This document shows, piece after piece, positions 6,840 to 62,702 of a stretch of DNA of 64,000 bases. The notes beneath the pieces are model-generated. The model was not told where the DNA came from. It was given only the letters and a program-made list of their open reading frames with translations, and searched no databases. Within the stretch, counting starts at the first letter, position 1; each line of letters starts with the position of its first letter. Made by a program: the position numbers and the translations under genes. The DNA is from Bacteroidales bacterium (lineage in GTDB: Bacteria > Bacteroidota > Bacteroidia > Bacteroidales > WCHB1-69). The stretch spans positions 113,468 to 177,467 of the forward strand of contig JAKSMI010000001.1 of assembly GCA_024400635.1 (NCBI GenBank). The letters are read 5' to 3'.

Positions 6840-6851
6840 TTCTTTTTGCTA

Positions 6852-10024: not shown

Positions 10025-10099
10025 AAGTAAGAATATTTATCTATTTTTGTAACTTTTTATGAAGCAAAAATATTACAAATAAATTAAACTATATAATAC

Positions 10100-14375: not shown

Positions 14376-16561
<2,186 letters not shown>

Positions 16562-33000: not shown

Positions 33001-33464
33001 TTGTAGTAGCCGCCGGGACGCATGGTGTAGTTGGTGGTGTTGGTACCGGGAACCAGCCAGTAGTGCACATCGTGGAGACTGGGGACCGAATAGGTCGCCA
33101 ACTGCGTTATCTCGGCGTCGGTGGGGAGGTGCCAGCCCTCGGGACAGATACCCTGTATGAAATTGTGCTCGCCAACGACAGGGATTTGACCCGGCTGGAT
33201 GTTCATCGCCGCGTACCAGCTGTAAAGGCGTCCATAGACAGCAAGGTTGTCGCTGGTGTCGGGATACTTATCTGCCCAGTAGATTGAGCTGCCGGGGACC
33301 CTGGTCTTCAGGTTGGACTGCATCCAGCAGTGAGGACCAATCTTCAGCGGAGTGTAGGAATTGCCGTCCGCGTCGGTGACTGACAGGTTGCTTCCGCACT
33401 GTCCCATCACCGCGAGTGGGAGCAGGAACAATGCTAAAAGCAAAGGCAATAAAATCTTTTTCAT
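27051..33464 (-). CDS. giant secreted multidomain protein: 6 FISUMP (Fibrobacter succinogenes major paralogous, TIGR02145-type) domains + 7 Ig/Fn3-like modules + 1 Listeria-Bacteroides (Flg_new) repeat
   Basis: 2137 aa. Signal peptide MKKILLPLLLALFLLPLAVMGQC. The FISUMP signature is D.(D/E)GN.Y..V.IG.QCWM.ENL ... YG.LYNW ... GICP.GWH(V/L)P(S/T)..EW..L ... GFSA.P.G ... FWS ... GFSVRCLRD. The QCW Trp falls at aa 47, 546, 868, 1279, 1612 and 1939. Spacer modules look like TTDSANT.TKN.A.LYGNV...Y(Y/F).A...GTDT.YGE..NF.T. The Flg_new repeat is FFANGGIGTMD...FTGWNTAADGSGTQY...LTLYAQW. Confidence 0.85.
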   Translation of the reverse strand: MKKILLPLLLALFLLPLAVMGQCGSNLSVTDADGNSYTPLKIGPHCWMQSNLKTRVPGSSIYWADKYPDTSDNLAVYGRLYSWYAAMNIQPGQIPVVGEHNFIQGICPEGWHLPTDAEITQLATYSVPSLHDVHYWLVPGTNTTNYTMRPGGYYNANRNRSEDLCGSSYMWTAQSLDESSPSIVWSDCHCDHFLIDRTAPNNGVSVRCVLGIYQAQVATKEADNVKANSADLTGEVISAGLDENYTRGFIYGTDRDNPDGYVSESGQSEEEEYTLTAYDLAENTTYHFRAYVVNAFDTAYGEWMEFTTTVMKVQTLPINDITMHTAKANGAVTDMGNYESLNASFLYGTEPNALTDTAQREEAITAMGNYDCVLNGLLSDTKYYYCAYLTNGRQTVYGDTLDFTTTHMEVETAAATDVTNSGATLNGTLTALKGYSDNICGVVFRYGQCEDMLNLYSGGSTMDGTGDFNNDISGLLPNTTYYFQALAIHGTDTAWAADTLTFTTLTVPCPGAVRTNEHATELGSIDSVRDVEGNSYATVQIGSQCWMAQNLRTTQYADGTTPVSLGFDTSTSTAYRYFPDGDTNNVATYGHLYNWKAVMGSSTSSNNIPSGVQGICPDGWHVPSDAEWTQLTDYVNSQSGYKCGGTDKNIAKALASATGWKSSSYNCSVGNNLSPNNAAGFSAVPAGFYSGSYSDFGSYATFWSATQIDTIARSRFLGYGGASVIKYNKSKNFGFSVRCLRDPLTVTTDSANTVTKNGATLYGNVKSLGKYTTAQAGFRYGTSASTMTNIVSDEVAMMAAGQFSYGITGLTANTKYYYKAFSANGTDTVYGEVKNFKTLSINPCPNAATVTDVDNNVYNTVQIGNQCWMAENLRTTKYANGTAIANGGTTPSITTAYRYFPGGDTNNVATYGHLYNWKAVMGTSTSSKANPSGVQGICPDGWHVPSDAEWTQLTAYVKSRGYKCNVSPDNIAKALASTTGWMSSPDYCDVGNDPSANNATGFSAVPAGSYNGSRSGFDGVGGNAYFWSATSIRIYAYYRSINYSDEYVTCDDHFRDNGYSVRCLRDPLTVVTTAVSSITANSAICGGNVLADGGSAVTARGVCWSTSQNPTTADGHTTDGSGTGSFNSSITGLSGSTTYYVRAYAANGTDTVYGEVKNFTTAADIVTDTIVFFANGGIGTMDTMFVTRGDTVLNANTYTHGGNWQFTGWNTAADGSGTQYADHASITTSGNLTLYAQWHTWCTGIPKTSVNEFGTSRIDSVKDIDNNKYNVVQIGDQCWMAQNLRTTKYADGTSISLGSTTSTETAYHYYPTGSSSNVSKYGYLYNWKAVMGNSTSSETNPSGVQGICPKGWHVPSDTEWTQLTNYVSSQSEYVCESINTYNAKALASTTGWNSSSNTCVPGNNPSDNNATGFSAVPAGYYSGGYGSFGDDAHFWSATQYYNSYAYSRYVDYNYADVHKYNYEEYYGFSVRCLRDPLTVTTDSANTITKNSAKLYGNVTNMGGFAEVNAGFRYGQHPDYMTFRTERTVSSTGSFNAELTNISPNTTYYFQSYAATATDTAWASDTLTFTTLTNPCSVASIRGNERGTGKQIDSVKDHEDNWYKVVQIGNQCWLAENMRATTEPGSSTHIALNTDASLTEPRIYSTDSGYVARYGYLYNFPAAMNTSSDDNHFTYPHRGICPEGWHVPTKDDWDLLAATAGVPDHLYVPGTTEFTDGLGKLTGGTDWITSTWRTSPGCYNYIYRDSTGFSARPASCYYDGKIENVGESAYFWTSSEDDYYLHIYYSYGAILYGSGEAHSSGFSIRCLRDAEVPAAMSVTTDSANTITKNSATLYGNVTDMGGKSEVNAGFKYGTSESALTSIVSDGVSTTAPGMFSFGITGLTANTQYYYKAFAANGTDTVYGEVMNFKTLSINPCPNMPTVTDVDNNVYNTVQIGDQCWMKENLRTTKYADGTPISLGNSKSTSTAYRYYPNNDSNTVSTYGYLYNWRAAMRYSSSSENNPSGVQGICPTGWHLPSDAEWTQLTDYVSSQSQYRCNGNASFISKSLAATSGWRRDDFACAIGNYQFLNNATDFSGVPSGDYSGDYALFANSAYFWSTTLNFNDSNSAYIRLLYYNSESVIRNYNPIDFGFGVRCLRN

Positions 33465-51275: not shown

Positions 51276-53165
51276 CTATTTTTTTATAACTTTCTGATAG
51301 CCAACACTACCATCAGAATATTCAATTCTAAATGTATATAGTCCTGAATTCCAAGCTGATGTATTTATTTGTTGTTTTTGTGATGCAATAGATTCTCTAT
51401 GAATCAACTTTCCACTAACATCAAAAACGGCAAGTTCTTGAATTTCTTTTTGTTCGCAATGAAGCGTACACTGATATTCACATGGATTAGGCCAAATGTT
51501 AGCGGTATTTTGAAACAAATATTCATCAACACTATTGGGTGTCCAGCCATTCATGACAGCAACACCATTAAGGTCAAAGCCGCCGCTTGCAAAATTGGTA
51601 GGATATGGATCATTGATAATATGGCCATTTTTGTCGATAGTTCCATACTGAGTATCTATACTGCCCACTACATCCACAATACGAACATGAGAAATATTGT
51701 TGATGTCCAAATTACTATAACCTTGCAATTCATCCAAATCAAATGGTGTTCCCCAGCCTGCACAATATTTTCCCGCCAAGTTGTATAGATTGCTAGCATC
51801 TACACTTCCTGCATTACCGATTTGTTCATCAATAGCAGTATTTGAAACAGATGGAAAACGGTAGAAATGAACTCCATCGGAGCTGACTTCCACAAAAGCG
51901 AGTTCAAGGAAAACATCATTCAAAGAATTCTCAAAAACGGCAAAATCATAACCAGGGCCATTGGCTATGGGTTGGCTGAAGGTGAGGACAGCAGAACCTC
52001 CATCACCTAAACTAACGGCATCCGTGCTGACAGCGCTGGCTGGGCCCACGCCTGCACTTTCATCTCCAAAAGAGGCAAGAACCGTTCCTTCTGCGATATC
52101 TTGAAAACCACGGGTAATAGAACAGGTTGAAGCCCAGCCAAGAATAGCGTTGTTATCGCTACTAATAGCTTGACAATTAACACTTCCAACAACACCGTCA
52201 AAAGGTGTCAAGTTAGGAGTTGGCAACGAAACAGGTTGAATATCTGTTGTCCATATATAATTATAGTTTTCATCCGATATTCCACAACTTTCATTCCCCC
52301 ACTTAATAAGATCTCTGTCGTGTACATATTGGTCTTGAAAACCATTCATAGCACTATGCCCATTGATGTTATACATCCACCAACCACCAACCAATGAAAG
52401 ATTGTAGTTGTCATCTTGAAATGTAATATCATTCAGCATAGACCCTACGAACGTATAATTAAAACGACTATCATAAATTGCAATAGTGCGCATGACGTCA
52501 GCTACCAAAGCGCTATCTCCATCGAAATGAACACCCCAAGCAAATGCCGTAGCCGGATTGCACCAATTGACCACCAAAATAGCACTGCTAGCGCCATTGC
52601 CCACCCAATAGGTTACATTGTCAATACTAATTACCACATCTTCTTCTTGTGTTGAAGAACCATTGGGATCTACAGGAAAATAAACGTTATCATTAGGAAG
52701 GTCACAGTCTCCCCATTCCGCCATTTCAAACAAATCACCATTATGAAGTTCATCAGTTAATCCACCTGCCCAAACACCATTGATGGTATACGTCAACATT
52801 CCATATCCGACATTATAATTGATGACGCCATTGTTGTAACTGTAATCGTCAATCAGACTGCCACTATAATTAATGTTGAAATTGGGATCAGCATTATTTA
52901 TTTCATCTAACATATCTTGAATAGTGACAGAACCATTAAAACGATAACCATATGCCCAGCCACCAGCAGCTGTAGGACCACAGGCATAAAAACTCACAAT
53001 AATTTCATCATTACCTTGACCTATCCAAAATTGAATACCATTGGGGGAAATGACATTTGTGTTTCTCGTTGAAACAGATTGCCGCATTTGTTGTCTACAT
53101 TCTGCGTTTTGAGCATGAAGACTGAGAGTTGCAAAAACTAGCAATAAACACATTAATTTTTTCAT
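51276..53165 (-). CDS. T9SS-sorted surface protein with two tandem DUF4430-like (transcobalamin-like) N-terminal repeats
   Basis: The track ORF starts at a TTG (53195). An ATG at 53165 gives MKKLMCLLLVFATLSLHAQ. The tandem repeats end ...LTYTINGVWAGG..GDLFEMAEWG and ...WMYNINGHSAMNG..RDLIKWG. The C-terminal Por_Secre_tail-like segment is IWPNP...LAVFDVSGKLI...GLYTFRIEY...QKVIKK. Confidence 0.75.
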   Translation of the reverse strand: MKKLMCLLLVFATLSLHAQNAECRQQMRQSVSTRNTNVISPNGIQFWIGQGNDEIIVSFYACGPTAAGGWAYGYRFNGSVTIQDMLDEINNADPNFNINYSGSLIDDYSYNNGVINYNVGYGMLTYTINGVWAGGLTDELHNGDLFEMAEWGDCDLPNDNVYFPVDPNGSSTQEEDVVISIDNVTYWVGNGASSAILVVNWCNPATAFAWGVHFDGDSALVADVMRTIAIYDSRFNYTFVGSMLNDITFQDDNYNLSLVGGWWMYNINGHSAMNGFQDQYVHDRDLIKWGNESCGISDENYNYIWTTDIQPVSLPTPNLTPFDGVVGSVNCQAISSDNNAILGWASTCSITRGFQDIAEGTVLASFGDESAGVGPASAVSTDAVSLGDGGSAVLTFSQPIANGPGYDFAVFENSLNDVFLELAFVEVSSDGVHFYRFPSVSNTAIDEQIGNAGSVDASNLYNLAGKYCAGWGTPFDLDELQGYSNLDINNISHVRIVDVVGSIDTQYGTIDKNGHIINDPYPTNFASGGFDLNGVAVMNGWTPNSVDEYLFQNTANIWPNPCEYQCTLHCEQKEIQELAVFDVSGKLIHRESIASQKQQINTSAWNSGLYTFRIEYSDGSVGYQKVIKK

Positions 53166-53284
53166 CGTTTTGAAATTTAATAAGTTAAACAACAATTCGT
53201 GTCATTGCTTAGGGAAAGAAACATGTAGAATCTGAAAGATCATCTTCCGTGTTAGCCTATATCCCGAAGCTGTTCACTAAAAAT

Positions 53285-53440
53285 AATTTTTGGCAGGTTT
53301 TCTGACTTATCCCATCCGCGAGCGCCTTCCCACCTTGCGGCAGTGACGTATGCTCGTGGCATCAAAAGGACTTACAGCAGCGGGTACTGTGCAGGAATTA
53401 CACCTGCTTCCCTCTCGGGGCTCACACCCCTCACCAAAAG
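53285..53440 (-). promoter_or_regulatory. cobalamin (B12) riboswitch
   Basis: The minus strand reads GGUGAGGGGUGUGAGCCCCGAGAGGGAAGCAGGUGUAAUUCCUGCACAGUACCCGCUGCUGUAAG ... CACUGCCGCAAGGUGGGAAGGCG ... B12 box AAGUCAGAAAACCUGCC (forward 53292-53307). A -7 box TAttTTTG lies at 53447-53454. Confidence 0.9.
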
Positions 53441-53776
53441 TCAATGCAAAAATAAGAAAAAATTTAATGCGACGAAATATTTTTTTGATTGAAGATTGCA
53501 GATTCAACTATCAAGAGCAAAAATAACACAAACGGAGATAAAAACACGAACGGGTGTTGAAAAAATCTTGAGTCTCAGAAACTGCGCCTACAGGATAATA
53601 AAACAGGCGGCTTGAAGGCCGACTGGGGAAATAAATATTATTTAATTTCTTTCTCATATCGAAATTGGCATACAAAGCTGTACTCTTTTGGGGCACACCC
53701 TTGTGCTATTTTTGCACAGGATAATTCAGATAGTATTGTTTAATGTTGTATTTTTGGAAAATAAATAACGATTGAG

Positions 53777-54274
53777 ATGAATGATTTTGCGGCTATTGAT
53801 TTTGAGACTGCCAATTTTGCGCCGAGCAGCGTGTGCAGTGTAGGCGTGGTGGTAGTGCGTGACGGTGCGGTGGTGGATAGTTTTTATAGTCTAATCAAGC
53901 CGGCTCCCAATTTCTACAACTACTATTGTCAGCGGGTGCATGGCTTGTCGAATGAAGACACGGACACGGCTCCGATTTTTCCGAAAGTATGGGCTCAGTT
54001 GGCCCCCAAGATAAAGGGTTTGCCGTTGGTGGCGCATAACAGCCAATTTGACGAGGGCTGTCTGAAGGCGGCCTTTCTGCTATATCAGATGGATTACCCC
54101 GGTTATCAGTTCCGTTGCACTTATCGAGCGGCCAAAAAGCATTTTGGCAAGACGTTGGAGAACCTGCAGTTGCATACGGTCTCGGCGGCTTGTGGCTACC
54201 ACCTGGAGCATCATCACCACGCTTTGGCGGATGCGGAGGCGTGTGCTGCCATCGCATTGCGGATTTTGGGATAG
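53777..54274 (+). CDS. DEDDh 3'-5' exonuclease (DnaQ/epsilon-like)
   Basis: 165 aa, GC-rich. ExoI AIDFETAN, ExoII VAHNSQFDEGCL, ExoIII HHALADAEAC. Confidence 0.85.
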   Translation: MNDFAAIDFETANFAPSSVCSVGVVVVRDGAVVDSFYSLIKPAPNFYNYYCQRVHGLSNEDTDTAPIFPKVWAQLAPKIKGLPLVAHNSQFDEGCLKAAFLLYQMDYPGYQFRCTYRAAKKHFGKTLENLQLHTVSAACGYHLEHHHHALADAEACAAIALRILG

Positions 54275-54372
54275 GAAGTCGGAATTGAATCTGAAGATAC
54301 CGCGACATTTTTAGAATTGTGGTTTTTTGTTGCCGCACTACAAATCAAGTATTAATCTTATAAGAATATCTC

Positions 54373-54897
54373 ATGACATTTGAAGAAAAAATACACAAGG
54401 ATTTATATCAGCATCTGCTGTCTCTAAAGGAAATTGACGCGCATTTCCCGGATGCCATCGACATTGAAGAGAAGTGGACTGCCATTGGTCAGTCGTATAT
54501 GGCGGATGGTATTCGCGAATTTAGGGATTATCCCTCGGTAAGTCTCGGATGGATGATGTATGTGGGTATGGCGGTGGCACAGTACTGGGATGAGGACTGG
54601 GAGGTATATGGTCATTTGGAAGATTTGTACCTTTATTTGCGCGACAAAGAAGGGTTCGATACCATGGATGAATACATTCGGCGGGAGGTGCTGCGACTGT
54701 ATGCGCCCGAGTACGACGCGACCGAAGTGCTGGTGCAGGGCTGTGCCGAAAGGACGCTTTCCGCCTTGCGGCGCGAAAATATCGAACCGGCCACGAAAGA
54801 GGCTTTTGATTCCTATGTGGCCTGTCTCCACCAATTGTACCTAATGGGTGCGGCGGTACAGCTTCACCGAATGGGGTATCACATGCAGGCATTATAA
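54373..54897 (+). CDS. hypothetical protein
   Basis: 174-aa GC-rich ORF. No motif recognised. Confidence 0.5.
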   Translation: MTFEEKIHKDLYQHLLSLKEIDAHFPDAIDIEEKWTAIGQSYMADGIREFRDYPSVSLGWMMYVGMAVAQYWDEDWEVYGHLEDLYLYLRDKEGFDTMDEYIRREVLRLYAPEYDATEVLVQGCAERTLSALRRENIEPATKEAFDSYVACLHQLYLMGAAVQLHRMGYHMQAL

Positions 54898-54914: not shown

Positions 54915-54961
54915 GAGTTTTACCCAAGTCGGTAAAAAAAACGTCAATCTGGGTAAAACTC
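54915..54961. repeat. 12-bp perfect inverted repeat gagttttaccca (23 nt) tgggtaaaactc at the GC-rich/AT-rich junction
   Basis: Read directly between the convergent genes 54373..54897 and 55108..56163. Confidence 0.6.
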
Positions 54962-55107: not shown

Positions 55108-56163
55108 CTATTCTATGATGCTTTCACTGTCATCATTGTGCTTGAATTTGTTCTTTAGGACCAATTCTTTAGAGGTATTGGCATAGCAATACACACACAA
55201 GTGTCGGCAAGTGTTATACATCCCAATATCCTTGCTAATCATGCAACCACACACCTTGCGTTGTCCTTTGTCTTTAAGTTTTTGTTCAGACAATGGTGGT
55301 TGTGAGAAATCCAATCCAAAGAGCGAATCCGTCTCTGGCATTTTCCCGTAATAAAGGTAATACAATAATTCTTGGTCATCGGACCATAACCGTTTCATCA
55401 ATTCTGAATCAATACAACGATTATGTTCAATATGGTATTTTTCAAGGTCAATTTGTTCACCGCATGTGGCTAGTGAAAGGTTCCAACCTTCTGAAGCCCA
55501 TCTTTCACGACACTTTACGAGACCATCAGCAATTTCGTTCATTTGTTCAACATTGAATTCCCAATTGCCAACCGTTTCCTTGTCGAAAAAAGGCGTTTCT
55601 TTCACCAAATTATTCTGAACCTTTCGATAACCGTTGATGTCGATAAAACTAAAAACCAATTTGTCGGTAAAGCCTTTTAGTTGATTTCCGACATTCCAAA
55701 TTTTGACCAGCAAGTCGCGAGGCGATAACTGCGGCGTAACAACCAACGGATCGAAACGCCAAATGACTCTTTCTTTGCCGATTTTAGAAGACAAATCTTT
55801 GAATGTCGCGATACGTTGTTGGATTTTCGGCACATTGGGTTCGAAGCCCTCCTTTTCATAATCATTCAATGTGAATTGAAAGTAGTAATGAATGCCTCTT
55901 TCATCCAATTCGTGCAAAAGCGGGATGATGGGAGCCGGATTTTTGGTCCAAAAAACCACCACTTTGCAATTCTTGAACGACACGTAAGTTTTCTGCCGAT
56001 TGAACGGATTATACCAAACGCAGTAACCTGCCTTTAACCTTTTGATGAACCAATCGGCATAAAAAGCCGGAATATCTGTGCTTCGCGAAGCCGAAATGAT
56101 AACGGGGGCAAGGGCTTCAACAGTTTCACCGGATTTAGTTATAATTTTTATTTTTTCATTCAT
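55108..56163 (-). CDS. DUF1848-family protein (C-terminal Cys cluster, putative Fe-S)
   Basis: 351 aa: ISASRSTDIPAFYADWFIKRLKAGY...VVFWTKNP...WRFDPL and CGCMISKDIGMYNTCRHLCVYCYAN. Confidence 0.75.
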   Translation of the reverse strand: MNEKIKIITKSGETVEALAPVIISASRSTDIPAFYADWFIKRLKAGYCVWYNPFNRQKTYVSFKNCKVVVFWTKNPAPIIPLLHELDERGIHYYFQFTLNDYEKEGFEPNVPKIQQRIATFKDLSSKIGKERVIWRFDPLVVTPQLSPRDLLVKIWNVGNQLKGFTDKLVFSFIDINGYRKVQNNLVKETPFFDKETVGNWEFNVEQMNEIADGLVKCRERWASEGWNLSLATCGEQIDLEKYHIEHNRCIDSELMKRLWSDDQELLYYLYYGKMPETDSLFGLDFSQPPLSEQKLKDKGQRKVCGCMISKDIGMYNTCRHLCVYCYANTSKELVLKNKFKHNDDSESIIE

Positions 56164-56164
56164 T

Positions 56165-56491
56165 TTAAAAACTCATACTTTGTGACGCGACATCTTTAAC
56201 GTAAAAAGCCGTGATTTTGTATTTGCCGAAATTTAAAAAAATGATGCCGTCACATTCGGCTGGTAAATCATCGGGGATTACAATCGGAGCGACATTATCA
56301 ACATCTATCACAATCGGCCTACGAATATTGAGAAAATACACGGTATCGTTTTCCGAAAGCGGAGTACTACAGAACAATCCGCTGTTGGGACGATAGTATG
56401 TCGGCATTGGTTCGCCATTCTCGGTCATCACGTATGAAAGACCTTTGTCGGGAAGAACTTTGTATTTTTTCTTATTTTTATTCCAAAACAT
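56165..56491 (-). CDS. hypothetical protein (108 aa)
   Basis: ORF with ATG start, 1 nt from the DUF1848 start. No motif recognised. Confidence 0.5.
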   Translation of the reverse strand: MFWNKNKKKYKVLPDKGLSYVMTENGEPMPTYYRPNSGLFCSTPLSENDTVYFLNIRRPIVIDVDNVAPIVIPDDLPAECDGIIFLNFGKYKITAFYVKDVASQSMSF

Positions 56492-56502
56492 AATGATTAG
56501 TT

Positions 56503-56850
56503 TTAAAAGAAAGCCGGAGCTGTCATATTTATCATCTTCACTTTATTATTTTCGTCAAAATCCACAACAAAGCCACATCCGCCTACAGGATTGTCACGAG
56601 AAGCGAGTAGTGCATTTTTATGCATTCTTCCAGGAACTATTTCAAAGTCAAACACAGCGTGATGGGCTTTCATTGTTGCTAATTTTCCCTTCAAATAATC
56701 TATATATTCTGATTTGGATGTCAATTCTTGAAACACCCACATTGAGGCATAATGCACATCATCTGCCAAAAAAGGTTCAATAATTGAAGCATCGTAGTCT
56801 GTATATGCTTCGGCTAATTTGGTTAAAACCTTTAATTCTTGATTTTCCAT
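56503..56850 (-). CDS. small NTF2/SnoaL-like fold protein (tentative)
   Basis: 115 aa. The pattern LAEAYTDYDASIIEPFLADDVHYAS...EYIDYLKGKL resembles NTF2-like domains. Confidence 0.45.
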   Translation of the reverse strand: MENQELKVLTKLAEAYTDYDASIIEPFLADDVHYASMWVFQELTSKSEYIDYLKGKLATMKAHHAVFDFEIVPGRMHKNALLASRDNPVGGCGFVVDFDENNKVKMINMTAPAFF

Positions 56851-56856
56851 TCTTTA

Positions 56857-58977
56857 TTATTTTACGTGATATAATTCTTTTAGCTTTTTACAGACATCTG
56901 TCAATAGCGGTTCTTCAATCTTATTTTTGTTGTTGTAATAAAAATGTTTTATAACGGACTCATTGTCTATTTCCTTGCATTCCGTAAAAGTACCGTCTTT
57001 TAAGAAATACCCTCCTTTTTGATGTACTTCTTGAATCCACTCGATTTCTTTTTTCACCTTTTCTTTTCTGGAATCTGGTACAACAATAGGCTCAATGTGA
57101 ATCCACACATTATTATCATTGTAAAAATATTCTCCAATAGGATATTCTTGCTTCGGGTCAAAAAGGGTTCCTTGTTGTTGTGATTGGGCAGATCTTTTTC
57201 TTGGTTTTGTGGCTTCTAATGATTTTATACAGTCTTTCCATTTACCCCATCCTTTCTTACCTTTCGCCATAGGATCGGATTGTAATTTTTTCAGCTTAGA
57301 GATAAGCACCTCTGTGTTTTGTCCAAATTTTGGCCACAAATCTAACGTCTTTTCTCTATACCAGTCTTGTGCTTCTGACTTCATTTTTTTGAAAGCATCT
57401 GAATTAAAAACGGGTTGGAGACATTCTGGAATTTCTTTCGTTTGTTTATCTGAATTATTTACGGAGGATGTTTCAATTTCTGGATGTTTCTCAACAAACT
57501 GAATGTTTTCTTTTTTTAATTCGGGTAATGAAATGTGATGTAATTGTCCATAAAATTCTTTATATACATTCCAAACATATCCTTTATCAGAATAATCATA
57601 CAATATGTCTGTAAAATCCCGAGTTAAGTTGGCATAACCATTTAATATTCCGTAGAAAGCAAATGCCATTTTATAATTTGTTAGTTCTTTACTTTGCATG
57701 AAAGAAAGTAAATTTTCCCAGTTTTCACCTTTCAAAATAACTGCAGAGATTGATGATAATAGTCCGTCTTGCCATTTTTGGTTGAATGCATCTCCTGCAA
57801 TATGATGACGCAACTCATTCAAATATTTGCGTACAGGATGCTTTTCCCAATCTTCTTCTCCTATTATTTCTTTCGCTTTTAATGTAATTTGTTTTGCAAA
57901 TTCATCTCGAAAAGTGTTAATCTTACCATCTACTTCTTTTCTGGAAAAATTATCATTCACCCATGCGAATAATAATTTTTTTCCCAATTCATCATTTGTG
58001 AAGCAGCATTTTTCTAAACGATTATCAACAATGACGATTTCTTCGCTAAAAACATCAAGAGGATTAGCAGAAACTTTCATCTTACTTTGCTGTTTTTCTA
58101 TCTCGTTTTTTATCCAAGAAATAGCAGGATTTTCTGTTTCTTCTTTTATTTCAGAATATAATAATGATAAATAATAATCTTTATTAGAATTTTGTGGCGT
58201 ATTGTATTTCTTATCCCAATTAACGATAGTATTAAATAATTGTTCATTATTTAGCAATAATGCTAATTCCTGGTATTTTGGCTGTCGTAAATCAAATAGA
58301 TTCTCCAGTTGTTCATTTTGTTGTATAGTTGGTGTTCTATTGAAACTTGAAAGGATGGCGGCGAAAATATTATGGATTTCTTTGAGCGTATTCAATTGTT
58401 TGACATCTTTTTTGTTTGCAGACAATAAAGCGCCAATATAGTATCCATATAACAACCCTTTCATTTTATTAGTATGCCAATCTTTGTCGAGTTCGGTCAC
58501 ATTTAATAGACAAGGTTCTTTATTCGTTTCCAATGACGAATAAACATCATTAGGTCTGTTGATTGAGAGTATCTGACGATTATAGAGTTTGATAACTTTT
58601 GATTCCAAACTACTATCTGACATAGACAAAGTTGTTATTTTATCTTTTTCTTTGAAAAACAAAAAACTTGTAGTGGTTGGAGATAAATAAATCGTATGGT
58701 CACAATAAAAAGATCCGTTGTTCAGTGCTTTCACTTCCTGCTCTTCCACACTAATTTTAATCAATAGAGCATGGTCTTCCAAATCACTCTGAGGCCGTTC
58801 GAAATATCGCATAGAGTCATATAAGATAATGGCATTTTCAAATGGATTTTCTGGTATAGAGGTCCAACGAGAGTAACCAAAACTACGTTTGGAATAAAAT
58901 GCTTTGGGCGAAATACTATCGCTTGACATTATATTATTGAAATTCAATGTTGATGTGGGTATGTAGAATGTTTTCAT
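56857..58977 (-). CDS. large hypothetical protein (706 aa), no recognisable domain
   Basis: Uninterrupted AT-rich ORF, 1 nt downstream of the helicase stop. No Walker, HEPN, PLD or nuclease motif found by eye. Confidence 0.6.
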   Translation of the reverse strand: MKTFYIPTSTLNFNNIMSSDSISPKAFYSKRSFGYSRWTSIPENPFENAIILYDSMRYFERPQSDLEDHALLIKISVEEQEVKALNNGSFYCDHTIYLSPTTTSFLFFKEKDKITTLSMSDSSLESKVIKLYNRQILSINRPNDVYSSLETNKEPCLLNVTELDKDWHTNKMKGLLYGYYIGALLSANKKDVKQLNTLKEIHNIFAAILSSFNRTPTIQQNEQLENLFDLRQPKYQELALLLNNEQLFNTIVNWDKKYNTPQNSNKDYYLSLLYSEIKEETENPAISWIKNEIEKQQSKMKVSANPLDVFSEEIVIVDNRLEKCCFTNDELGKKLLFAWVNDNFSRKEVDGKINTFRDEFAKQITLKAKEIIGEEDWEKHPVRKYLNELRHHIAGDAFNQKWQDGLLSSISAVILKGENWENLLSFMQSKELTNYKMAFAFYGILNGYANLTRDFTDILYDYSDKGYVWNVYKEFYGQLHHISLPELKKENIQFVEKHPEIETSSVNNSDKQTKEIPECLQPVFNSDAFKKMKSEAQDWYREKTLDLWPKFGQNTEVLISKLKKLQSDPMAKGKKGWGKWKDCIKSLEATKPRKRSAQSQQQGTLFDPKQEYPIGEYFYNDNNVWIHIEPIVVPDSRKEKVKKEIEWIQEVHQKGGYFLKDGTFTECKEIDNESVIKHFYYNNKNKIEEPLLTDVCKKLKELYHVK

Positions 58978-58978
58978 A

Positions 58979-60028
58979 TTATATATCCTCCACTTCGGTT
59001 TTTTCTGTTGTTAAATACAAATCTCGAGGTACGTTTGATAAAGGGAATGGCAAATTACCACTATACATTACAAACAAATTTCTATATGTTCTTGTCATAG
59101 CGACATATAATGCCTTTCTATCAGAATCACTTTCACATGATTCGACAGCAGGGAGAAATACGGTGCCAAATTGAAGGCCTTTAGCACTATGATATGTCAT
59201 TACCTTGGGATTTTCTGTCGTGAAATCAAGATTATTAATGCTATTTCGCCAATTATCCTTGTCTTCATATTTCAATTCATGGTTATTGCGATTTGTATTT
59301 AATATGTCTGATACTTTTTTGACATCCTCATTATGAGGCAATAAAATTCCAACATCAGAAACATTTCCATTACTAATCATTCTAGTAATTGCTTTGATTT
59401 GTGAAGATAAAGAATCATATTGAATAAAGTGGGGTGTTGCTGTTTCTTTTGATTTATAGGTATCAATATCAAATCCATCTAAGTCAACACCTACATATTG
59501 AACTATTTTTGCAACAGGTCTTGGCAAACGATAATTTCTATATAAAGAAAAAGGTTTTGCATTAGCATGAAAAGTGTAATTGATATTTTCTACAGGCAAT
59601 GTGTCTTTTAATCCTTCATAAATTGATTGTGCCGTATCACCAAAGAAAAAGAAGTTTTTGTTCGTGGAATTAATAAAATCTGTTATTTCATCTTCAGTAA
59701 AATCCTGTATTTCATCAACTATAACATAATCGGCAGATGGACATCCAAGGCGATTTTTCCAATGCCAGTGATAGTAAAAATCTTTATTTAATCCTAAACT
59801 TTTTCTTCCAGCATTCATATAGTTACACAAAGCTTTGGTAAAGACAATAATTTGGTAATTATTACCCTTTTCTTTTTGGATTCGTTGTGCTTTTATTAAG
59901 GCCAAAACGGATTTGCCGCTTCCTGCACATCCAGATACAATAATTGATTTATCATTTGTCGCATTTAGTACTTTAATTTGGTCATCGTCCAATTCGGATT
60001 CAATTACCATCCAATCTTTTTTCGCCAT
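58979..60028 (-). CDS. minimal UvrD-like superfamily-1 helicase/ATPase
   Basis: 349 aa. Walker A GCAGSGKS, Walker B VIVDEIQD, motif III GDTAQSIY, motif V YHSAKGLQF, motif VI LYVAMTRT. Confidence 0.8.
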   Translation of the reverse strand: MAKKDWMVIESELDDDQIKVLNATNDKSIIVSGCAGSGKSVLALIKAQRIQKEKGNNYQIIVFTKALCNYMNAGRKSLGLNKDFYYHWHWKNRLGCPSADYVIVDEIQDFTEDEITDFINSTNKNFFFFGDTAQSIYEGLKDTLPVENINYTFHANAKPFSLYRNYRLPRPVAKIVQYVGVDLDGFDIDTYKSKETATPHFIQYDSLSSQIKAITRMISNGNVSDVGILLPHNEDVKKVSDILNTNRNNHELKYEDKDNWRNSINNLDFTTENPKVMTYHSAKGLQFGTVFLPAVESCESDSDRKALYVAMTRTYRNLFVMYSGNLPFPLSNVPRDLYLTTEKTEVEDI

Positions 60029-60032
60029 AACT

Positions 60033-60827
60033 TTATCGTTTTATCATCCTCCAAGCCACCTTGCTTTTGTCATTTGACTTATGAGAATGGGTTATTAAAT
60101 ACATTTGATTATACCCTTCATTTCTTTCTATTTCTTTGCAGGTTGTCTTATTCAAGCCTCTATCCATCATTACCGGTAACCATTCATCAGAAATGCAGTT
60201 TTTAGTTGTGATGTCTTCAATCAAAATAATGCCCTCGCTTTTTAGTTTTGGCAGCATAAAATTCACAATATGTTCGTATGGATTTTTCTGCTCAAATTGT
60301 TGTTCGGTCACAAATTCACAAATGGCCTTGAATGACATAACAATGTCGAAATTTTCATCCATCACAGCATCAAGAATATTTAAGTCGTAAAAATCATCAA
60401 TGTAGATTGCTGCGGGATGATTTTCTATTTGACAATGAAATTGAATGGTTTCTTGCATTATTTTCATTATCTTCTCATATCTCAATAGCGCATTCTGGTT
60501 GCCATCCAAAGCAACAATTTTTACTTTCTTTAGATTATTGAATTTATTATTCAAAACAGTCAGTAATCCAACAATTTCGCCGCCTGTACCGCAGCCAAAA
60601 TCAAAGATTGAAATTTCTTCGCGATTCTGCCATTCGGAAAAATGATTGCCGAAATAATCAGAAAAAATAGAATACGCCTCTGCGTAACTTCTGGGAAAAT
60701 ATGTTCCAAGATACTTCAATGTAGCGTCTCTATCATCGTGGATATTGGTCATATCCGCATAGGACGGACAATATTGTGCCCCTAATTCTTCGAAAATAAG
60801 ATTGTCAAGCCAGGTCGGTAGAGTCAT
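60033..60827 (-). CDS. class-I SAM-dependent methyltransferase (not a classical DNA MTase by motifs)
   Basis: Motif I IFDFGCGTGGE and post-I KIVALDGN. No (D/N/S)PP(Y/F/W) and no PCQ/ENV motif. The track start is a TTG at 60851. The ATG at 60827 (MTLPTWLDN...) is more likely. Confidence 0.75.
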   Translation of the reverse strand: MTLPTWLDNLIFEELGAQYCPSYADMTNIHDDRDATLKYLGTYFPRSYAEAYSIFSDYFGNHFSEWQNREEISIFDFGCGTGGEIVGLLTVLNNKFNNLKKVKIVALDGNQNALLRYEKIMKIMQETIQFHCQIENHPAAIYIDDFYDLNILDAVMDENFDIVMSFKAICEFVTEQQFEQKNPYEHIVNFMLPKLKSEGIILIEDITTKNCISDEWLPVMMDRGLNKTTCKEIERNEGYNQMYLITHSHKSNDKSKVAWRMIKR

Positions 60828-61119
60828 TATATTGGACTTTGTGGGCTCCAATGCTCTTTTCTCTCCCCAACTAAAAAAAGGCGTTCGCCGTTTCTTAGTC
60901 GCTTATTTCACTCCGTGGGCCAACCAAAGCCTTGTAGGTAAATAAGCACGAAACGGTTCACGCCTAAGACGTGAACCTTCCGCTATCTCATTCTCACCTA
61001 CTGAATAAATTGGTCGTTTACGGAGTAGAGAACAAGAGCGTAAAGCTCAGATTATTACGAAGTTATTCTATTTTTCTATATACTGTTTTTATATTTAACA
61101 ATGAATTCTTTATATTCTG

Positions 61120-61127
61120 CAAAAATA
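61120..61127 (-). promoter_or_regulatory. candidate -7 box TAttTTTG for the six-gene operon
   Basis: Forward caaaaata. This would give a leader of about 280 nt before the MTase ATG. Confidence 0.3.
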
Positions 61128-61295: not shown

Positions 61296-61348
61296 AAAAA
61301 ACAATCTTTCAAAGTCTTTTTTTTATCAATTTTCAATCTTGAAAGATT
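61296..61348 (+). repeat. 53-bp direct repeat, copy 1
   Basis: aaaaaacaatctttcaaagtcttttttttAtcaattttcaatcttgaaagatt matches 62615-62667 at 52 of 53 positions. Confidence 0.85.
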
Positions 61349-61390
61349 TATTTTTGTATTTTTGCAGATTGAAAAATACAAGTCATAATT

Positions 61391-62599
61391 ATGGAAGGCA
61401 CATCAATTGAAAGTTTGTATAGAACATCCGACCGTTTAGTGCATGCGGTGTCAATGAATTTTCATCGCTACTTATACGATAAGATAAGGTGGAATGCTCG
61501 GCTGATTGCGATAAAAGGGGCGAGAGGGGTTGGCAAGACGACCTTGCTGTTGCAGCATATTAAGGAGAATTTTGGCGAAAATTCGCAATTGGCTTTATAT
61601 GTATCGCTGGATAATATGTGGTTCGCGACGCATACTTTGAGCGAAGTGGTGGAATACCATTACACCCACGGAGGAACGCATTTGTTTATAGATGAAGTAC
61701 ATAAATACAAGGATTGGCAAACCGTCATTAAAAATATCAATGACGAGTATCCTGATATGCACGTGGTCTATACCAGTTCGTCAATGCTGAAGATGGAGAG
61801 TGAAAAGGGCGACCTTTCCCGGCGGCAAATTATGTATCAGTTAAATGGACTATCCTTTCGAGAGTATATGGCGTTTGAAGGTGCGGTGGCGACCGAATCC
61901 GTGTCGTTGCAGGATTTACTAAGAAGGCATACGAAAATTGCCCTTCAAATTACGAGTCAATGTAAGGTTTTGCCTTTGTTTGAACGTTACCTGAAAGTTG
62001 GTTTTTATCCGTTTTACAAAAGAGATTCAGAAGAGTTTGAACAGCGTTTGCAGTCCGTAATCAGAACTATCTTGTACGAGGATTTGCCTGCTGTGGAAGA
62101 TGTGTCGTATCCAACTGTTCAAAAAGTACAAAGAATGTTGATGATTTTGGCGGCCAAGGTTCCCCAAACACCAAATATGAGCGAATTATACGGCCTTTTG
62201 GAAACAAATAGGGAACAGGGTATGAAAATGCTTGATTTGTTAGAGAAAGGTTCTTTGCTAAATCTTTTGTCGTCAGAAAAAAAGAGTTTTCGCTATTTGT
62301 CCAAACCTGATAAAATATACCTGAATAATACCAATTTAATGTATGCCCTTACACCGATGGCCAATGTGGGAACCCCCCGCGAGACGTTCTTCCTCAACCA
62401 GCTTAAGGCAGTGGCAAAAGTGTGTTACCCACCCCAAGGAGACTTTTTCGTTGATAATAAATATTTGTTTGAAGTGGGAGGTGGAAGTAAAAGCTTTGAA
62501 CAGATTAAAGACCTGCAGGATAGTTATTTGGCTGTCGCAGGAATCGAAATTGGATATGGTCATCGCATTCCTCTCTGGATGTTTGGCTTACTGTATTAG
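61391..62599 (+). CDS. AAA-family ATPase (AAA_14 + DUF4143 type)
   Basis: 402 aa. Walker A GARGVGKTTLLLQ and Walker B HLFIDEVHKY. Confidence 0.85.
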   Translation: MEGTSIESLYRTSDRLVHAVSMNFHRYLYDKIRWNARLIAIKGARGVGKTTLLLQHIKENFGENSQLALYVSLDNMWFATHTLSEVVEYHYTHGGTHLFIDEVHKYKDWQTVIKNINDEYPDMHVVYTSSSMLKMESEKGDLSRRQIMYQLNGLSFREYMAFEGAVATESVSLQDLLRRHTKIALQITSQCKVLPLFERYLKVGFYPFYKRDSEEFEQRLQSVIRTILYEDLPAVEDVSYPTVQKVQRMLMILAAKVPQTPNMSELYGLLETNREQGMKMLDLLEKGSLLNLLSSEKKSFRYLSKPDKIYLNNTNLMYALTPMANVGTPRETFFLNQLKAVAKVCYPPQGDFFVDNKYLFEVGGGSKSFEQIKDLQDSYLAVAGIEIGYGHRIPLWMFGLLY

Positions 62600-62614: not shown

Positions 62615-62667
62615 AAAAAACAATCTTTCAAAGTCTTTTTTTTGTCAATTTTCAATCTTGAAAGATT
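62615..62667 (+). repeat. 53-bp direct repeat, copy 2
   Basis: See copy 1. It starts 16 nt after the ATPase stop. Confidence 0.85.
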
Positions 62668-62702
62668 GAATTTTTAAGTACAATCACTAATGGTTTTGAT
62701 GC

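What the first reader, a model, noticed from the sequence alone, without database searches (positions are those of the whole stretch)
55108..60851. AT-rich six-gene operon (class-I MTase, minimal UvrD-like helicase, 706-aa orphan, NTF2-like, 108-aa orphan, DUF1848 Fe-S protein): candidate undescribed defence or nucleic-acid-modification system
Seen in the sequence:
- Six minus-strand ORFs are separated by only 4, 1, 6, 11 and 1 nt, so they are almost certainly one translationally coupled transcript.
- Composition is very AT-rich. A hand count of line 58201-58260 gives about 12/60 G+C. A housekeeping line (15001-15060) gives about 24/60, and the adjacent 53.7-54.9 kb block is visibly GC-rich.
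- The MTase has motif I IFDFGCGTGGE but no (D/N/S)PP(Y/F/W) and no PCQ/ENV. It therefore does not look like a classical DNA amino- or C5-methyltransferase.
- The helicase carries Walker A, Walker B and motifs III, V and VI in only 349 aa, which leaves no room for 1B/2B accessory domains.
- The DUF1848 protein has a C-terminal Cys cluster.
- Two proteins (706 aa and 108 aa) have no motif I can recognise.

Established knowledge: operons combining a methyltransferase, a helicase and unknown large proteins are typical of phage-defence islands. So is a location in compositionally foreign DNA next to DUF4143-type ATPases and decayed genes.

Inference: from domain content this combination does not match BREX, DISARM, Dnd/Dpd, Gabija, Hachiman, Zorya or Druantia. 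It may be a new system. Alternatively the DUF1848/NTF2-like/108-aa trio may be a separate module from the MTase/helicase/706-aa trio.
Basis: partly seen in the sequence, partly recalled or inferred. Interest (0 to 1): 0.82.

Follow-up and report, generated by a model that had tools for sequence, protein, structure and literature searches.

The report
Unnamed four-gene defence-like cassette with leader RNA
The six genes are real, but the conserved unit is a four-gene cassette (methyltransferase, small helicase, an unannotated 700-residue protein and an iron-sulfur enzyme), often preceded by a structured RNA switch, that recurs in many gut Bacteroidota and looks like an undescribed anti-invader system whose function is untested.

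Summary
In detail: there are six tightly packed minus-strand ORFs at 34.5% GC against 44.0% for the rest of the window.

The interpretation needs correcting.
- The conserved unit is four genes, not six: MTase, SF1 helicase, the 706-aa protein ("P706") and DUF1848. All four are present in 61 of 80 related loci, and 57 share this exact order.
- The 115-aa and 108-aa genes are local inserts in a variable slot between P706 and DUF1848.
- P706 is not an orphan. It defines a family of 671 clusters at 50% identity with no annotation.
- The P706 model is confident. Its N-terminal domain weakly resembles ADP-ribosyltransferases (DarT, TreTu).
- DUF1848 is a barrel-like protein with seven invariant cysteines, including a CX3CX2C motif.

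Three of the four components match proteins or domains of the uncharacterised UG25/UG35 reverse-transcriptase systems, but no reverse transcriptase is present.

Several features favour a defence role. The flanks vary between genomes. In some variants the MTase is fused to PIN, NERD or HEPN-like nuclease domains, and SIR2-like genes are inserted.

A structured leader RNA with strong covariation and a terminator/antiterminator design precedes the MTase gene in 18 loci. The window has a structured leader in the same place, but its homology to those RNAs was not shown.

Neither function nor mechanism has been tested.

The parts
61120..61127 (-). Bacteroidota-type -7 promoter box TATTTTTG, the likely operon promoter
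   Evidence: Regex TAnnTTTG on the minus strand, 293 nt upstream of ATG 60827. A TAnnTTTG box was found upstream of the conserved leader in 17 of the 23 related loci checked. Consensus match only; no transcript data.
60873..61112 (-). Structured 5' leader RNA ending in an A-tract/hairpin/U7 terminator-like element just before the MTase gene
   Evidence: Window 60828-61112 folds at -89.1 kcal/mol against -61.2 +/- 4.7 for dinucleotide shuffles, z = -5.9. No Rfam match. A MAFFT alignment with type-B leaders shows a long-range helix with 3 compensatory pairs. A profile and a covariance model built without the window do not retrieve it, so homology is not shown.
60033..60851 (-). Class-I SAM methyltransferase-fold protein (272 aa from TTG; 264 aa from ATG 60827)
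   Evidence: Pfam CheR 2.3e-6 and Methyltransf_31 1e-4. PADLOC RT_UG35 profile positions 47-154 of 938, E = 1e-8. Motif I GCGTGGE, no DNA-MTase motif IV. Present in 69 of 80 related loci.
58979..60028 (-). Compact SF1 (UvrD-like) helicase/ATPase, 349 aa
   Evidence: Viral_helicase1 1.6e-14 and UvrD_C_2 5e-11. GajB 9e-17, RTasHel 4e-16. Motifs I, II, III, V and VI present. Adjacent to P706 in 79 of 80 loci. Median 59.6% identity across 55 loci.
56857..58977 (-). P706: family-defining 706-aa protein. N-terminal alpha/beta domain (~1-140, ADP-ribosyltransferase-like fold), helical middle (~160-480), disordered linkers, small C-terminal domain (~620-706)
   Evidence: No Pfam, NCBIfam, PADLOC or PDB sequence match. 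More than 1000 homologues and 671 clusters at 50% identity. AF2 pLDDT 88.5, pTM 0.71. Foldseek: DarT prob 0.94 and 0.85, TreTu 0.5-0.6, ARH3/DraG up to 0.77, all with E > 0.2. Pfam 2CompART E = 0.045-0.19 in 3 of 80 members.
56503..56850 (-). 115-aa accessory protein (possibly SnoaL/NTF2-like); not part of the conserved core
   Evidence: 64% identical homologue in L001 and a weaker relative in L029 only. TIGR02096 E = 0.11. No PDB match. It lies in the variable slot between P706 and DUF1848.
56165..56491 (-). 108-aa accessory protein of unknown fold; not part of the conserved core
   Evidence: No match in any library. One homologue (L059, 78% identity), in the same slot.
55108..56163 (-). DUF1848 Fe-S protein, 351 aa; the most conserved component
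   Evidence: PF08902 7e-92. RTasDUF1848 2.5e-39. Seven invariant Cys: 234, 250, 305, 307, 319, 323 and 326, the last three forming CX3CX2C. AF2 pLDDT 92.9, pTM 0.91. Foldseek gives only weak TIM-barrel-type matches. Median 66.8% identity across loci.

Best explanation
The window carries one copy of a widespread, unnamed conflict (most likely anti-phage or anti-mobile-element) cassette. Its conserved core is four co-transcribed genes: MTase, SF1 helicase, P706 and DUF1848.

Inferred mechanism, with each step marked:
1. (Shown in relatives, inferred here.) Transcription starts at a Bacteroidota promoter and first makes a long structured leader. The leader can fold as a terminator or as an antiterminator. 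Expression of the four genes is therefore gated by an unknown signal.
2. (Inferred.) The helicase and P706 work as one unit. The ATP-driven SF1 motor engages foreign nucleic acid and brings in P706. The conserved N-terminal ADP-ribosyltransferase-like domain of P706 is the best candidate for the effector or modifying activity. The substrate (DNA, RNA or protein) is unknown.
3. (Inferred.) The MTase and DUF1848 form a second unit that carries out SAM-dependent chemistry. DUF1848 has a CX3CX2C motif plus four more invariant cysteines, consistent with two Fe-S clusters. This unit would act on nucleic acid either to mark self or to make or repair a modification.
4. (Shown.) Lineages add extra effectors: PIN, NERD or HEPN-like domains fused to the MTase, and SIR2-like, zinc-ribbon, SnoaL-like, GNAT and other small genes between P706 and DUF1848. 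The window's 115-aa and 108-aa genes are such add-ons.

The cassette shares its MTase, helicase and DUF1848 parts with UG25/UG35 reverse-transcriptase systems. P706 stands where the reverse transcriptase would be.
For: Conservation:
- 80 loci were recovered from one genome per species. All four genes are present in 61 of them, and 57 are colinear MT-HEL-P706-DUF1848. At least 8 of the remaining loci are cut by contig ends.
- Gene boundaries overlap or nearly touch.

Mobility:
- Of 604 flanking ORFs, 439 are singletons among 503 clusters.
- The hosts are mostly Bacteroidota, but also Desulfovibrio, Geobacter, Planctomycetes, Kiritimatiellia, Chloroherpeton and Helicobacteraceae.
- The island is 34.5% GC against 44.0% for the rest of the window.

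Defence-type context and modularity:
- Recurrent neighbours are Schlafen/AlbA_2 proteins, AAA_14/DUF4143 ATPases, YhcG PD-(D/E)xK nucleases and WYL proteins.
- Flank proteins hit PADLOC models for Ago-associated SIR2 proteins, pAgo, PDC-S02 and PD-DExK.
- The MTase is fused to PIN_4 (5e-19), to NERD, or to a weak HEPN_Swt1 match.
- SIR2_2-like genes are inserted in L056 and L059.

Component homology:
- RT_UG35 N-terminal region 1e-8, RTasHel 4e-16, RTasDUF1848 2.5e-39. The UG25/UG35 architectures are described in PMC9226505.
- An MT-like/DUF1848 pair also occurs on its own. hhalign of the MTase against the 292-aa partner gives E = 1e-4, probability 58%.

Structures.

Leader RNA:
- 18 loci carry a conserved roughly 290-nt element upstream of the MTase gene.
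- 93.2% of cells pair, against 77.0% in shuffles (0 of 500 reach it) and 33-40% when the partners are slid. There are 129 double-change cells against 43 in shuffles.
- The alternative terminator fold pairs in 90% of cells, against 36-54% when slid.
- The three competing segments covary in L001 and L058.
- The window's own leader has z = -5.9.
Against: - No experiment links any component to defence. The source paper rated UG25 and UG35 'inconclusive' for defence.
- The ADP-ribosyltransferase assignment is weak. All Foldseek E-values exceed 0.2 and TM-scores are about 0.4. hhalign against a 7-sequence DarT profile gives 0.15% probability. The NAD-contacting His of the DarT N-terminal motif is replaced by an invariant Ile-Pro. 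No conserved Glu was identified at the expected position.
- The ARH-like reading of the middle domain has no sequence support and poor superposition (rmsd about 19 A).
- DUF1848 does not match Pfam Radical_SAM. Its nearest solved folds are generic TIM barrels (TM 0.28), and its CX3CX2C motif is C-terminal, unlike canonical radical SAM enzymes.
- DUF1848 also occurs alone at ordinary chromosomal loci, once next to a pseudouridine synthase.
- P706 is absent from 72,556 plasmids.
- Riboswitch-like leaders are more typical of metabolic operons than of defence systems.
- The window's leader is not retrieved by profiles or a covariance model built from the other leaders.
Confidence: 0.6

Rival explanations
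1. This is not immunity. It is an accessory nucleic-acid (probably RNA) modification or repair pathway under riboswitch-like control. The MTase and DUF1848 would install or remove a modification, with the helicase and P706 as remodelling or targeting factors.
For: - The terminator/antiterminator leader with strong covariation is typical of metabolite-controlled operons.
- DUF1848 and the helicase are highly conserved (medians of 67% and 60% identity).
- DUF1848 occurs alone at ordinary loci and once 9 nt downstream of an RluA-type pseudouridine synthase.
- The helicase's best Pfam match is an RNA-helicase core, and the MTase lacks DNA-MTase motifs.
- P706 has no hit in plasmids.
Against: - Distribution across phyla is patchy, and nearly all flanks are different.
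- Base composition is atypical.
- The MTase is fused to PIN, NERD or HEPN-like nuclease domains, and SIR2-like genes are inserted.
- Some copies are decayed, with split ORFs in L052, L062, L067, L069 and L070. That fits a dispensable, frequently lost function.
Confidence: 0.22
2. The six genes are two or more unrelated modules that are merely adjacent here. This is the reader's alternative of a DUF1848/NTF2-like/108-aa trio and an MTase/helicase/706-aa trio.
For: - An MT-like/DUF1848 pair exists without helicase and P706 in Desulfuromonadales.
- Helicase and P706 exist without DUF1848 nearby in L058, L061, L069, L073 and L076.
- GC3 differs between the two halves of the island.
Against: - 57 of 80 loci from different species keep the same four genes in the same order with overlapping boundaries.
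- The 115-aa and 108-aa genes do not travel with DUF1848. They occur in 1-2 loci each.
Confidence: 0.04
3. The cassette is a selfish addiction or anti-defence module of an integrative mobile element rather than host immunity. For example, it could be a toxin (the ART-like domain) with a built-in or partner antidote.
For: - Variable insertion sites and foreign composition.
- One copy lies on an unverified metagenomic 'Bacteriophage sp.' scaffold.
- The ART-plus-hydrolase pairing hinted by Foldseek resembles toxin/immunity pairs.
Against: - Integrases, transposases and conjugation genes are not among the recurrent neighbours.
- It is absent from the plasmid collection.
- The phage label of the single record is unverified.
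Confidence: 0.08

Closest known systems
UG35 and UG25 class-1 UG/Abi reverse-transcriptase systems (Mestre et al. 2022, NAR, PMC9226505)
   Same: The window MTase matches the N-terminal MTase region of the RT_UG35 profile (1e-8). The helicase matches the RT-associated helicase model (4e-16). DUF1848 matches the RT-associated DUF1848 model (2.5e-39). The paper describes UG35 as an MTase-RT fusion plus a UvrD-like helicase, and UG25 as an MTase-RT fusion plus a DUF1848 protein.
   Different: No reverse-transcriptase domain is present anywhere in the six proteins. The MTase is a separate gene. Helicase and DUF1848 occur together rather than in alternative systems. P706 has no counterpart in those systems. 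UG25 and UG35 are themselves untested, and their defence prediction was inconclusive.
DarT/DarTG; also, from my own knowledge and not tested here, other ADP-ribosyltransferase defence effectors such as CmdT
   Same: In a Foldseek search with the whole P706 model, DarT is the hit with the highest probability (0.94 and 0.85, TM 0.38-0.41). I attribute that match to the N-terminal alpha/beta domain, because the tool gives no query ranges. The N-terminal strand-helix motif has the same pattern: P706 FYIPTSTLNFNNIL against DarT IYHITHIDNLKGIL and LFHFTHSDNLTSIL.
   Different: There is no detectable sequence-profile similarity. The DarT His residues are replaced. There is no macrodomain antitoxin. 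P706 is 3-4 times larger and is always paired with a helicase.
GajB (Gabija), Nhi and AbiO type SF1 helicases of defence systems
   Same: The helicase core matches these models (GajB 9e-17, Nhi 1e-11, AbiO 1e-10).
   Different: There is no GajA or OLD-family partner and no fused nuclease. The protein is only 349 aa, without 1B/2B inserts. The matches cover core motifs only.
Radical-SAM enzymes in defence: prokaryotic viperins (own knowledge) and Ophion OpnA (bioRxiv 10.1101/2025.09.30.679545)
   Same: DUF1848 has a CX3CX2C motif in a barrel-like fold and sits in a multigene candidate defence cassette.
   Different: Ophion is a radical SAM enzyme plus a PHP phosphatase plus a PRTase, so the partners differ. 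DUF1848 does not match Pfam Radical_SAM, its motif is C-terminal, and it has four extra invariant Cys.
Transcription-attenuating riboswitches and leader RNAs
   Same: The type-A leader has nested long-range helices with abundant covariation. One segment can pair either upstream or downstream to complete a U-tailed terminator.
   Different: It matches no Rfam 15 family. The ligand or trigger is unknown. At about 290-350 nt it is long for a riboswitch, and it could instead be a separate ncRNA component.

Membership tests
UG25/UG35 defence-associated reverse-transcriptase systems | A reverse-transcriptase (RVT) domain protein | tested here: not met
   No RVT family matched any of the six proteins at E <= 1. 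The RT_UG35 match covers only profile positions 47-154 of 938, the MTase part.
UG25/UG35 defence-associated reverse-transcriptase systems | N-terminal MTase domain, associated UvrD-like helicase (UG35), or associated DUF1848 protein (UG25) | tested here: met
   RT_UG35 1e-8, RTasHel 4.3e-16, RTasDUF1848 2.5e-39. Architectures as described in PMC9226505.
Gabija | GajA (OLD-family ATPase/TOPRIM nuclease) next to GajB | tested here: not met
   Only GajB-type helicase models matched. No GajA match in the six proteins.
DarT (DUF4433) ADP-ribosyltransferases / DarTG | Sequence membership in DUF4433, with the conserved [YF]H[FI]TH N-terminal motif | tested here: not met
   No Pfam match. hhalign against a 7-sequence DarT alignment gives probability 0.15%. 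The His positions are Ile6 and Ser9 in P706.
DarT (DUF4433) ADP-ribosyltransferases / DarTG | ADP-ribosyltransferase fold | tested here: inconclusive
   Foldseek: 7omx prob 0.94, E 0.34, TM 0.41; 7omv prob 0.85; TreTu prob 0.54-0.63, TM 0.41-0.47. Pfam 2CompART E = 0.045-0.19 in 3 of 80 members, spanning residues 3-113.
DarT (DUF4433) ADP-ribosyltransferases / DarTG | Macrodomain antitoxin (DarG) | tested here: not met
   No Macro domain in any of the six proteins.
Radical SAM superfamily (for DUF1848) | CX3CX2C cluster motif | tested here: met
   C319-x3-C323-x2-C326 is invariant in 31 and in 93 sequences. There is a weak local match to the PA0069 radical SAM model at residues 310-333 (E = 0.014).
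Radical SAM superfamily (for DUF1848) | Match to the Radical_SAM profile, or a partial (beta/alpha)6 barrel with the motif after strand 1 | tested here: inconclusive
   No PF04055 match. The motif is C-terminal. Foldseek gives only generic TIM barrels (E = 3e-3, TM 0.28); one radical SAM enzyme (7tom) ranks 47th.
Radical SAM superfamily (for DUF1848) | Reductive cleavage of SAM to 5'-deoxyadenosine | not testable with these tools
   Needs a biochemical assay.
BREX, DISARM, Druantia, Dnd, Dpd, Zorya, Hachiman | Signature proteins (PglZ/BrxC, DrmA/B, DruE, DndA-E, DpdA/B, ZorA/B, HamA) | tested here: not met
   The PADLOC 2.0.0 scan of all six proteins returned none of these. Systems named after 2023 are not covered.
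SF1 helicases | Walker A, Walker B (DExx), and motifs III, V and VI | tested here: met
   GSGKS (K39), DEIQD 105, GDTAQ 130, HSAKGLQF 280, YVAMTR 308. Pfam families.
DNA amino- or C5-methyltransferases | Motif IV (D/N/S)PP(Y/F/W), or PCQ plus ENV | tested here: not met
   Regex search found none. Only generic class-I and CheR matches.
Conserved leader RNA of this cassette (types A and B, defined here) | Retrieved by a profile or covariance model built from other members | tested here: not met
   For the window, nhmmer without the window sequence finds nothing. CM R1 gives 4.3 bits, E about 5, at 60903-61028. What the window does share is position, strong structure (z = -5.9) and short motifs.

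The most novel reading that the evidence does not exclude
This is a new class of immune system in which a dedicated, riboswitch-like or ncRNA leader controls or partners a helicase-guided ADP-ribosyltransferase-like effector and a non-canonical (C-terminal motif, two-cluster) radical-SAM/MTase pair. It would be an RT-less sister of the UG25/UG35 systems. It would bring both a new regulatory RNA class and new nucleic-acid chemistry in abundant human- and animal-gut Bacteroidota.
Probability: 0.3. Interest if true: 0.9.

Novelty: new variant of a known kind. Interest (0 to 1): 0.74.

Why it matters
Gut Bacteroidota are under-sampled for defence systems, because most discovery work uses E. coli, Bacillus and Pseudomonas.

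- **A large unannotated system.** The cassette is common (671 P706 clusters at 50% identity), yet no tool or paper consulted here names it.
- **Two families with predicted structures but no known function.** P706 and DUF1848 both give confident models, so both are ready for biochemistry.
- **A link to orphan systems.** The cassette shares parts with the orphan UG25/UG35 reverse-transcriptase systems. That suggests the MTase/DUF1848 and MTase/helicase partnerships are reusable modules.
- **A new structured RNA.** The covariation-supported leader RNA is absent from Rfam. If it senses a ligand or an infection cue, it would be a rare case of RNA-level gating of an immune operon.
- **Cultured carriers exist.** These include Prevotella jejuni DSM 26989, Parabacteroides acidifaciens 426-9, Phocaeicola coprophilus An818, Mediterranea massiliensis and Bacteroides sp. 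224. Tests are therefore feasible.

Tried and rejected
- **PDB sequence searches.** Searches for DUF1848, P706 (single sequence and profiles), the MTase, the 115-aa and the 108-aa proteins found nothing useful.
- **Foldseek of P706 against viral structures (BFVD).** Only noise.
- **P706 as a divergent RT/alpha-repeat protein replacing the UG35 RT.** Rejected. There is no YxDD motif, no PADLOC RT match, and the fold hits are unrelated.
- **ARH-like middle domain.** No ADP_ribosyl_GH signal in 71 members. I keep it only as a weak fold hint.
- **DarT homology by profile-profile comparison.** Negative. Scans for more DarT sequences gave none in viral contigs and 8 loci in metagenomes.
- **DUF1848 as a spore-photoproduct-lyase-like enzyme.** Not supported by Foldseek, although JGI names some members 'DNA repair photolyase'.
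- **Ophion (a radical SAM defence system).** Different composition.
- **Literature searches.** Searches for DUF1848, UG25/UG35 and component combinations found no named system. One search term ('2CompART') returned only irrelevant papers.
- **Pairing of the 5'-most leader segment with the terminator's 5' strand.** My test did not discriminate from shuffles, so I make no claim.
- **Similarity between the window leader and other loci.** blastn, nhmmer and the covariance model were all negative.
- **First z-score script.** It timed out and was rerun with mononucleotide shuffles.

Full report
**1. Observation**

The six minus-strand ORFs are at the stated coordinates, with gaps of 4, 1, 6, 11 and 1 nt. 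The block is 34.5% GC against 44.0% for the rest of the window. The composition is not uniform. Helicase, P706 and the 115-aa gene have GC3 of 23-29%. The 108-aa gene and DUF1848 have GC3 of 42-44%.

The domain statements hold.
- The MTase has a class-I fold with motif I GCGTGGE and no DNA-MTase motif IV.
- The helicase is a 349-aa SF1 protein with all core motifs.
- DUF1848 matches its Pfam family at 7e-92.
- The 706-aa, 115-aa and 108-aa proteins match nothing in Pfam, NCBIfam, PADLOC or PHROGs at meaningful E-values.

The public gene call for P706 starts at Met17 (690 aa). The family consensus MKKFYIPTSTLNF shows that the ATG at 58977 is the true start.

**2. The conserved unit**

P706 is not an orphan. 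It has more than 1000 homologues at 90% clustering. An exhaustive profile search with its N-terminal domain finds 671 clusters at 50% identity. In the 150 best matches the domain lies at the N-terminus, and most of those proteins are about 650-800 aa.

A scan of one genome per species returned 80 loci. I searched their six-frame ORFs with the six window proteins.
- All four of MTase, helicase, P706 and DUF1848 are present in 61 loci, and 57 have exactly that order on one strand.
- Helicase and P706 are adjacent in 79 of 80 loci.
- At least 8 of the incomplete loci are cut by contig ends.
- The 115-aa gene recurs in L001, with a weaker relative in L029. The 108-aa gene recurs only in L059.

The space between P706 and DUF1848 is a variable slot. 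In other loci it holds:
- SIR2_2-like genes (L056, L059);
- zinc-ribbon proteins (L027, L059);
- SnoaL-domain proteins (L026);
- a GNAT acetyltransferase (L001);
- a second SF1 helicase (L008).

Median identity to the window proteins across 55 loci is 66.8% for DUF1848, 59.6% for the helicase, 49.6% for the MTase and 38.4% for P706.

**3. Two sub-modules**

In Desulfuromonadota-type loci the MTase is replaced by a 292-aa protein placed directly upstream of DUF1848 (L075; L077 and L078 are cut by contig ends). The same 292-aa/DUF1848 pair occurs without helicase and P706, next to a HicA toxin-family gene (L097, L098). Profile-profile comparison links the 292-aa protein to the cassette MTase. 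The match covers the YLxxYFP and G-x-G-x-x-x-E region, with E = 1e-4 and probability 58%.

DUF1848 also occurs alone, and once 9 nt after a pseudouridine synthase gene. The cassette is therefore best read as [helicase + P706] plus [MTase + DUF1848].

**4. Relatives**

PADLOC matches the following:
- the MTase to the N-terminal part of RT_UG35 (1e-8);
- the helicase to GajB-type models and to RTasHel (4e-16);
- DUF1848 to RTasDUF1848 (2.5e-39).

Mestre et al. 2022 (PMC9226505) describe UG35 as an MTase-RT fusion with a UvrD-like helicase. They describe UG25 as an MTase-RT fusion with a DUF1848 protein. Both have an inconclusive defence prediction.

No reverse-transcriptase domain exists here. 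Full-text searches found no later work on UG25, UG35 or DUF1848, and no named system with this composition. The radical-SAM system Ophion has different partners.

**5. Evidence for a conflict or defence role**

All of this evidence is indirect.
- The flanks are almost all different: 439 singletons among 503 clusters of 604 flanking ORFs.
- Recurrent neighbours are Schlafen/AlbA_2-HATPase proteins, AAA_14/DUF4143 ATPases (as in the window), YhcG PD-(D/E)xK nucleases, WYL and HTH proteins.
- Among 148 flank proteins, PADLOC models for Ago-associated SIR2 proteins, pAgo, PDC-S02 and PD-DExK recur.
- In divergent members the MTase carries a C-terminal PIN_4 domain (5e-19), an N-terminal NERD domain like that of PDC-M16A, or a weak HEPN_Swt1 match.
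- Several copies are decayed, with split ORFs.

Some evidence points away from a mobile or defence reading.
- P706 is absent from 72,556 plasmid records.
- Its only hit among phage records is an unverified metagenomic scaffold that carries all four genes.

**6. Structures**

P706 models with pLDDT 88.5 and pTM 0.71. It has:
- an alpha/beta N-terminal domain (about 1-140);
- a helical region (about 160-480);
- two disordered linkers;
- a small C-terminal domain.

No PDB match reaches E < 0.2. The highest-probability hits are ADP-ribosyltransferases: DarT at 0.94 and 0.85, and the toxin TreTu at 0.54-0.63. Many ADP-ribosylhydrolases (ARH3, DraG) follow, with poor superposition.

Pfam gives a weak 2CompART (ADP-ribosyltransferase) match spanning residues 3-113 in 3 of 80 members. 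The N-terminal motif FYIPTSTLNFNNIL parallels the DarT motifs seen in PDB entries (IYHITHIDNLKGIL, LFHFTHSDNLTSIL), but the His residues are replaced.

Further tests were negative. A DarT profile built from 7 sequences shows no similarity to the N-terminal domain. The middle domain shows no ADP_ribosyl_GH signal. I therefore treat 'ART-like fold' as probable, and catalytic activity as open. The invariant N-domain residues, which are candidates for mutagenesis, include R31, G34, E67, D68, S123 and K127.

DUF1848 models with pLDDT 92.9 and pTM 0.91. It resembles only generic TIM barrels (E = 3e-3, TM 0.28). It has seven invariant cysteines. The last three form CX3CX2C near the C-terminus. This fits a non-canonical radical-SAM-like enzyme with an auxiliary cluster, but it does not prove one.

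**7. A leader RNA**

In the window, a Bacteroidota -7 box (TATTTTTG, 61127-61120) lies 293 nt upstream of the MTase ATG. The intervening leader folds far better than shuffles (z = -5.9). It ends in an A-tract/hairpin/U7 element and matches no Rfam family.

The 250 nt upstream of the MTase gene was folded in 45 related loci.

| Region (250 nt) | Median z | z < -3 | z < -5 |
|---|---|---|---|
| Upstream of the MTase gene | -2.2 | 19 of 45 | 11 of 45 |
| Downstream of DUF1848 (control) | -1.27 | 8 of 45 | 1 of 45 |

Two sequence families emerge.
- **Type A** is about 290 nt and occurs in 18 loci directly upstream of the MTase gene. There is also one orphan copy in L013.
- **Type B** occurs in L018, L034 and L045-L049.

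The type-A alignment of 19 sequences supports 41 pairs, of which 25 show compensatory changes.

| Measure | Observed | Shuffled | Partners slid |
|---|---|---|---|
| Cells paired | 93.2% | 77.0% (0 of 500 reach it) | 33-40% |
| Double-change cells | 129 | 43 | – |
| Covariation score | 0.50 | 0.21 | – |

The conserved segment CGTTGCTCG can pair with an upstream AGCAACG. Alternatively it can pair with a downstream CGAGTGAC/CGGGCAAC, which completes a U-tailed terminator. That terminator fold pairs in 90% of cells, against 36-54% when slid. All three segments change together in L001 and L058. This is the design of a transcription attenuator. None of the six type-A loci scanned matched any Rfam family at the leader.

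The window's leader aligns by eye and by MAFFT with type B, including three compensatory pairs in the long-range helix. However, a profile without the window and a covariance model built from five type-B cores do not retrieve it. Its homology is therefore not shown.

**8. Verdict**

The finding is real and more interesting than an ordinary operon, but it needs re-description. It is a four-gene, Bacteroidota-centred cassette with lineage-specific add-ons. It shares parts with the UG25/UG35 systems, lacks a reverse transcriptase, and in many genomes is preceded by a new structured RNA switch.

Defence is the best-supported role (about 0.6). The main rival is an RNA- or DNA-modification pathway under riboswitch-like control. 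The mechanism given above is inference except where it is marked as shown.

Noticed in passing
window 53275-53453 (-): A cobalamin riboswitch (RF00174, 92.5 bits, E = 1e-21) lies upstream of the 639-aa gene at 51276-53195. That gene has a T9SS C-terminal sorting domain and a weak DUF4430 match.
   Followed up: partly
window 61296-61355 and 62615-62674: Two 60-bp direct repeats (95% identical) flank the AAA_14/DUF4143-type ATPase gene (61391-62599). This suggests that the gene was inserted or the intergenic region duplicated. The same ATPase family recurs next to the cassette in 4 other loci.
   Followed up: partly
window 27051-33464 (-): A 2137-aa ORF in a 54-59% GC stretch, far above the 43% window mean, encodes six Fib_succ_major repeats plus fn3-like regions. 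It is probably a large surface protein.
   Followed up: partly
window 58930-58977 and 60828-60851: Gene-start issues. The public call for P706 (690 aa) starts at Met17 and removes the conserved first strand (MKxFYIPTSTLNF). The MTase may start at ATG 60827 (264 aa, as called publicly) rather than at TTG 60851.
   Followed up: partly
window 54915-54961: A 12-13-bp inverted repeat (GAGTTTTACCCA ... TGGGTAAAACTC) with a T-rich loop lies between the convergent DUF1848 gene and the 174-aa gene. It may be a shared terminator. This was read from the sequence, and the terminator scan did not list it.
   Followed up: no
L013 20281-20542 (-): Prevotella jejuni DSM 26989 has an orphan copy of the type-A leader RNA about 7 kb from its cassette. 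It has no U-run and no downstream gene on that strand. The region upstream of that cassette's own MTase gene is unstructured (z = -0.6).
   Followed up: partly
L097 6119-7972; L098; L096 6279-7945; L094: In Desulfuromonadota-type genomes DUF1848 occurs outside the cassette in three settings: with a 292-aa MTase-like partner next to a HicA toxin-family gene, directly after an RluA-type pseudouridine synthase gene, or alone among housekeeping genes.
   Followed up: partly
L099 (MT835661.1) 4689-10482: A 28.7-kb 'UNVERIFIED: Bacteriophage sp.' scaffold from human faeces carries the full MT-HEL-P706-DUF1848 cassette. Whether it is really viral was not checked.
   Followed up: partly
window 53777-54897 (+): The GC-richer block next to the island encodes an RNase_T/DnaQ-like 3'-5' exonuclease (165 aa) and a 174-aa protein with no Pfam match.
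   Followed up: no
L005, L008, L028, L001: Some loci carry a second DUF1848 copy or a fragment. L005 has one upstream of the MTase, L028 has one between the MTase and the helicase, and L008 and L001 have short fragments. This points to repeated rearrangement around this gene.
   Followed up: no
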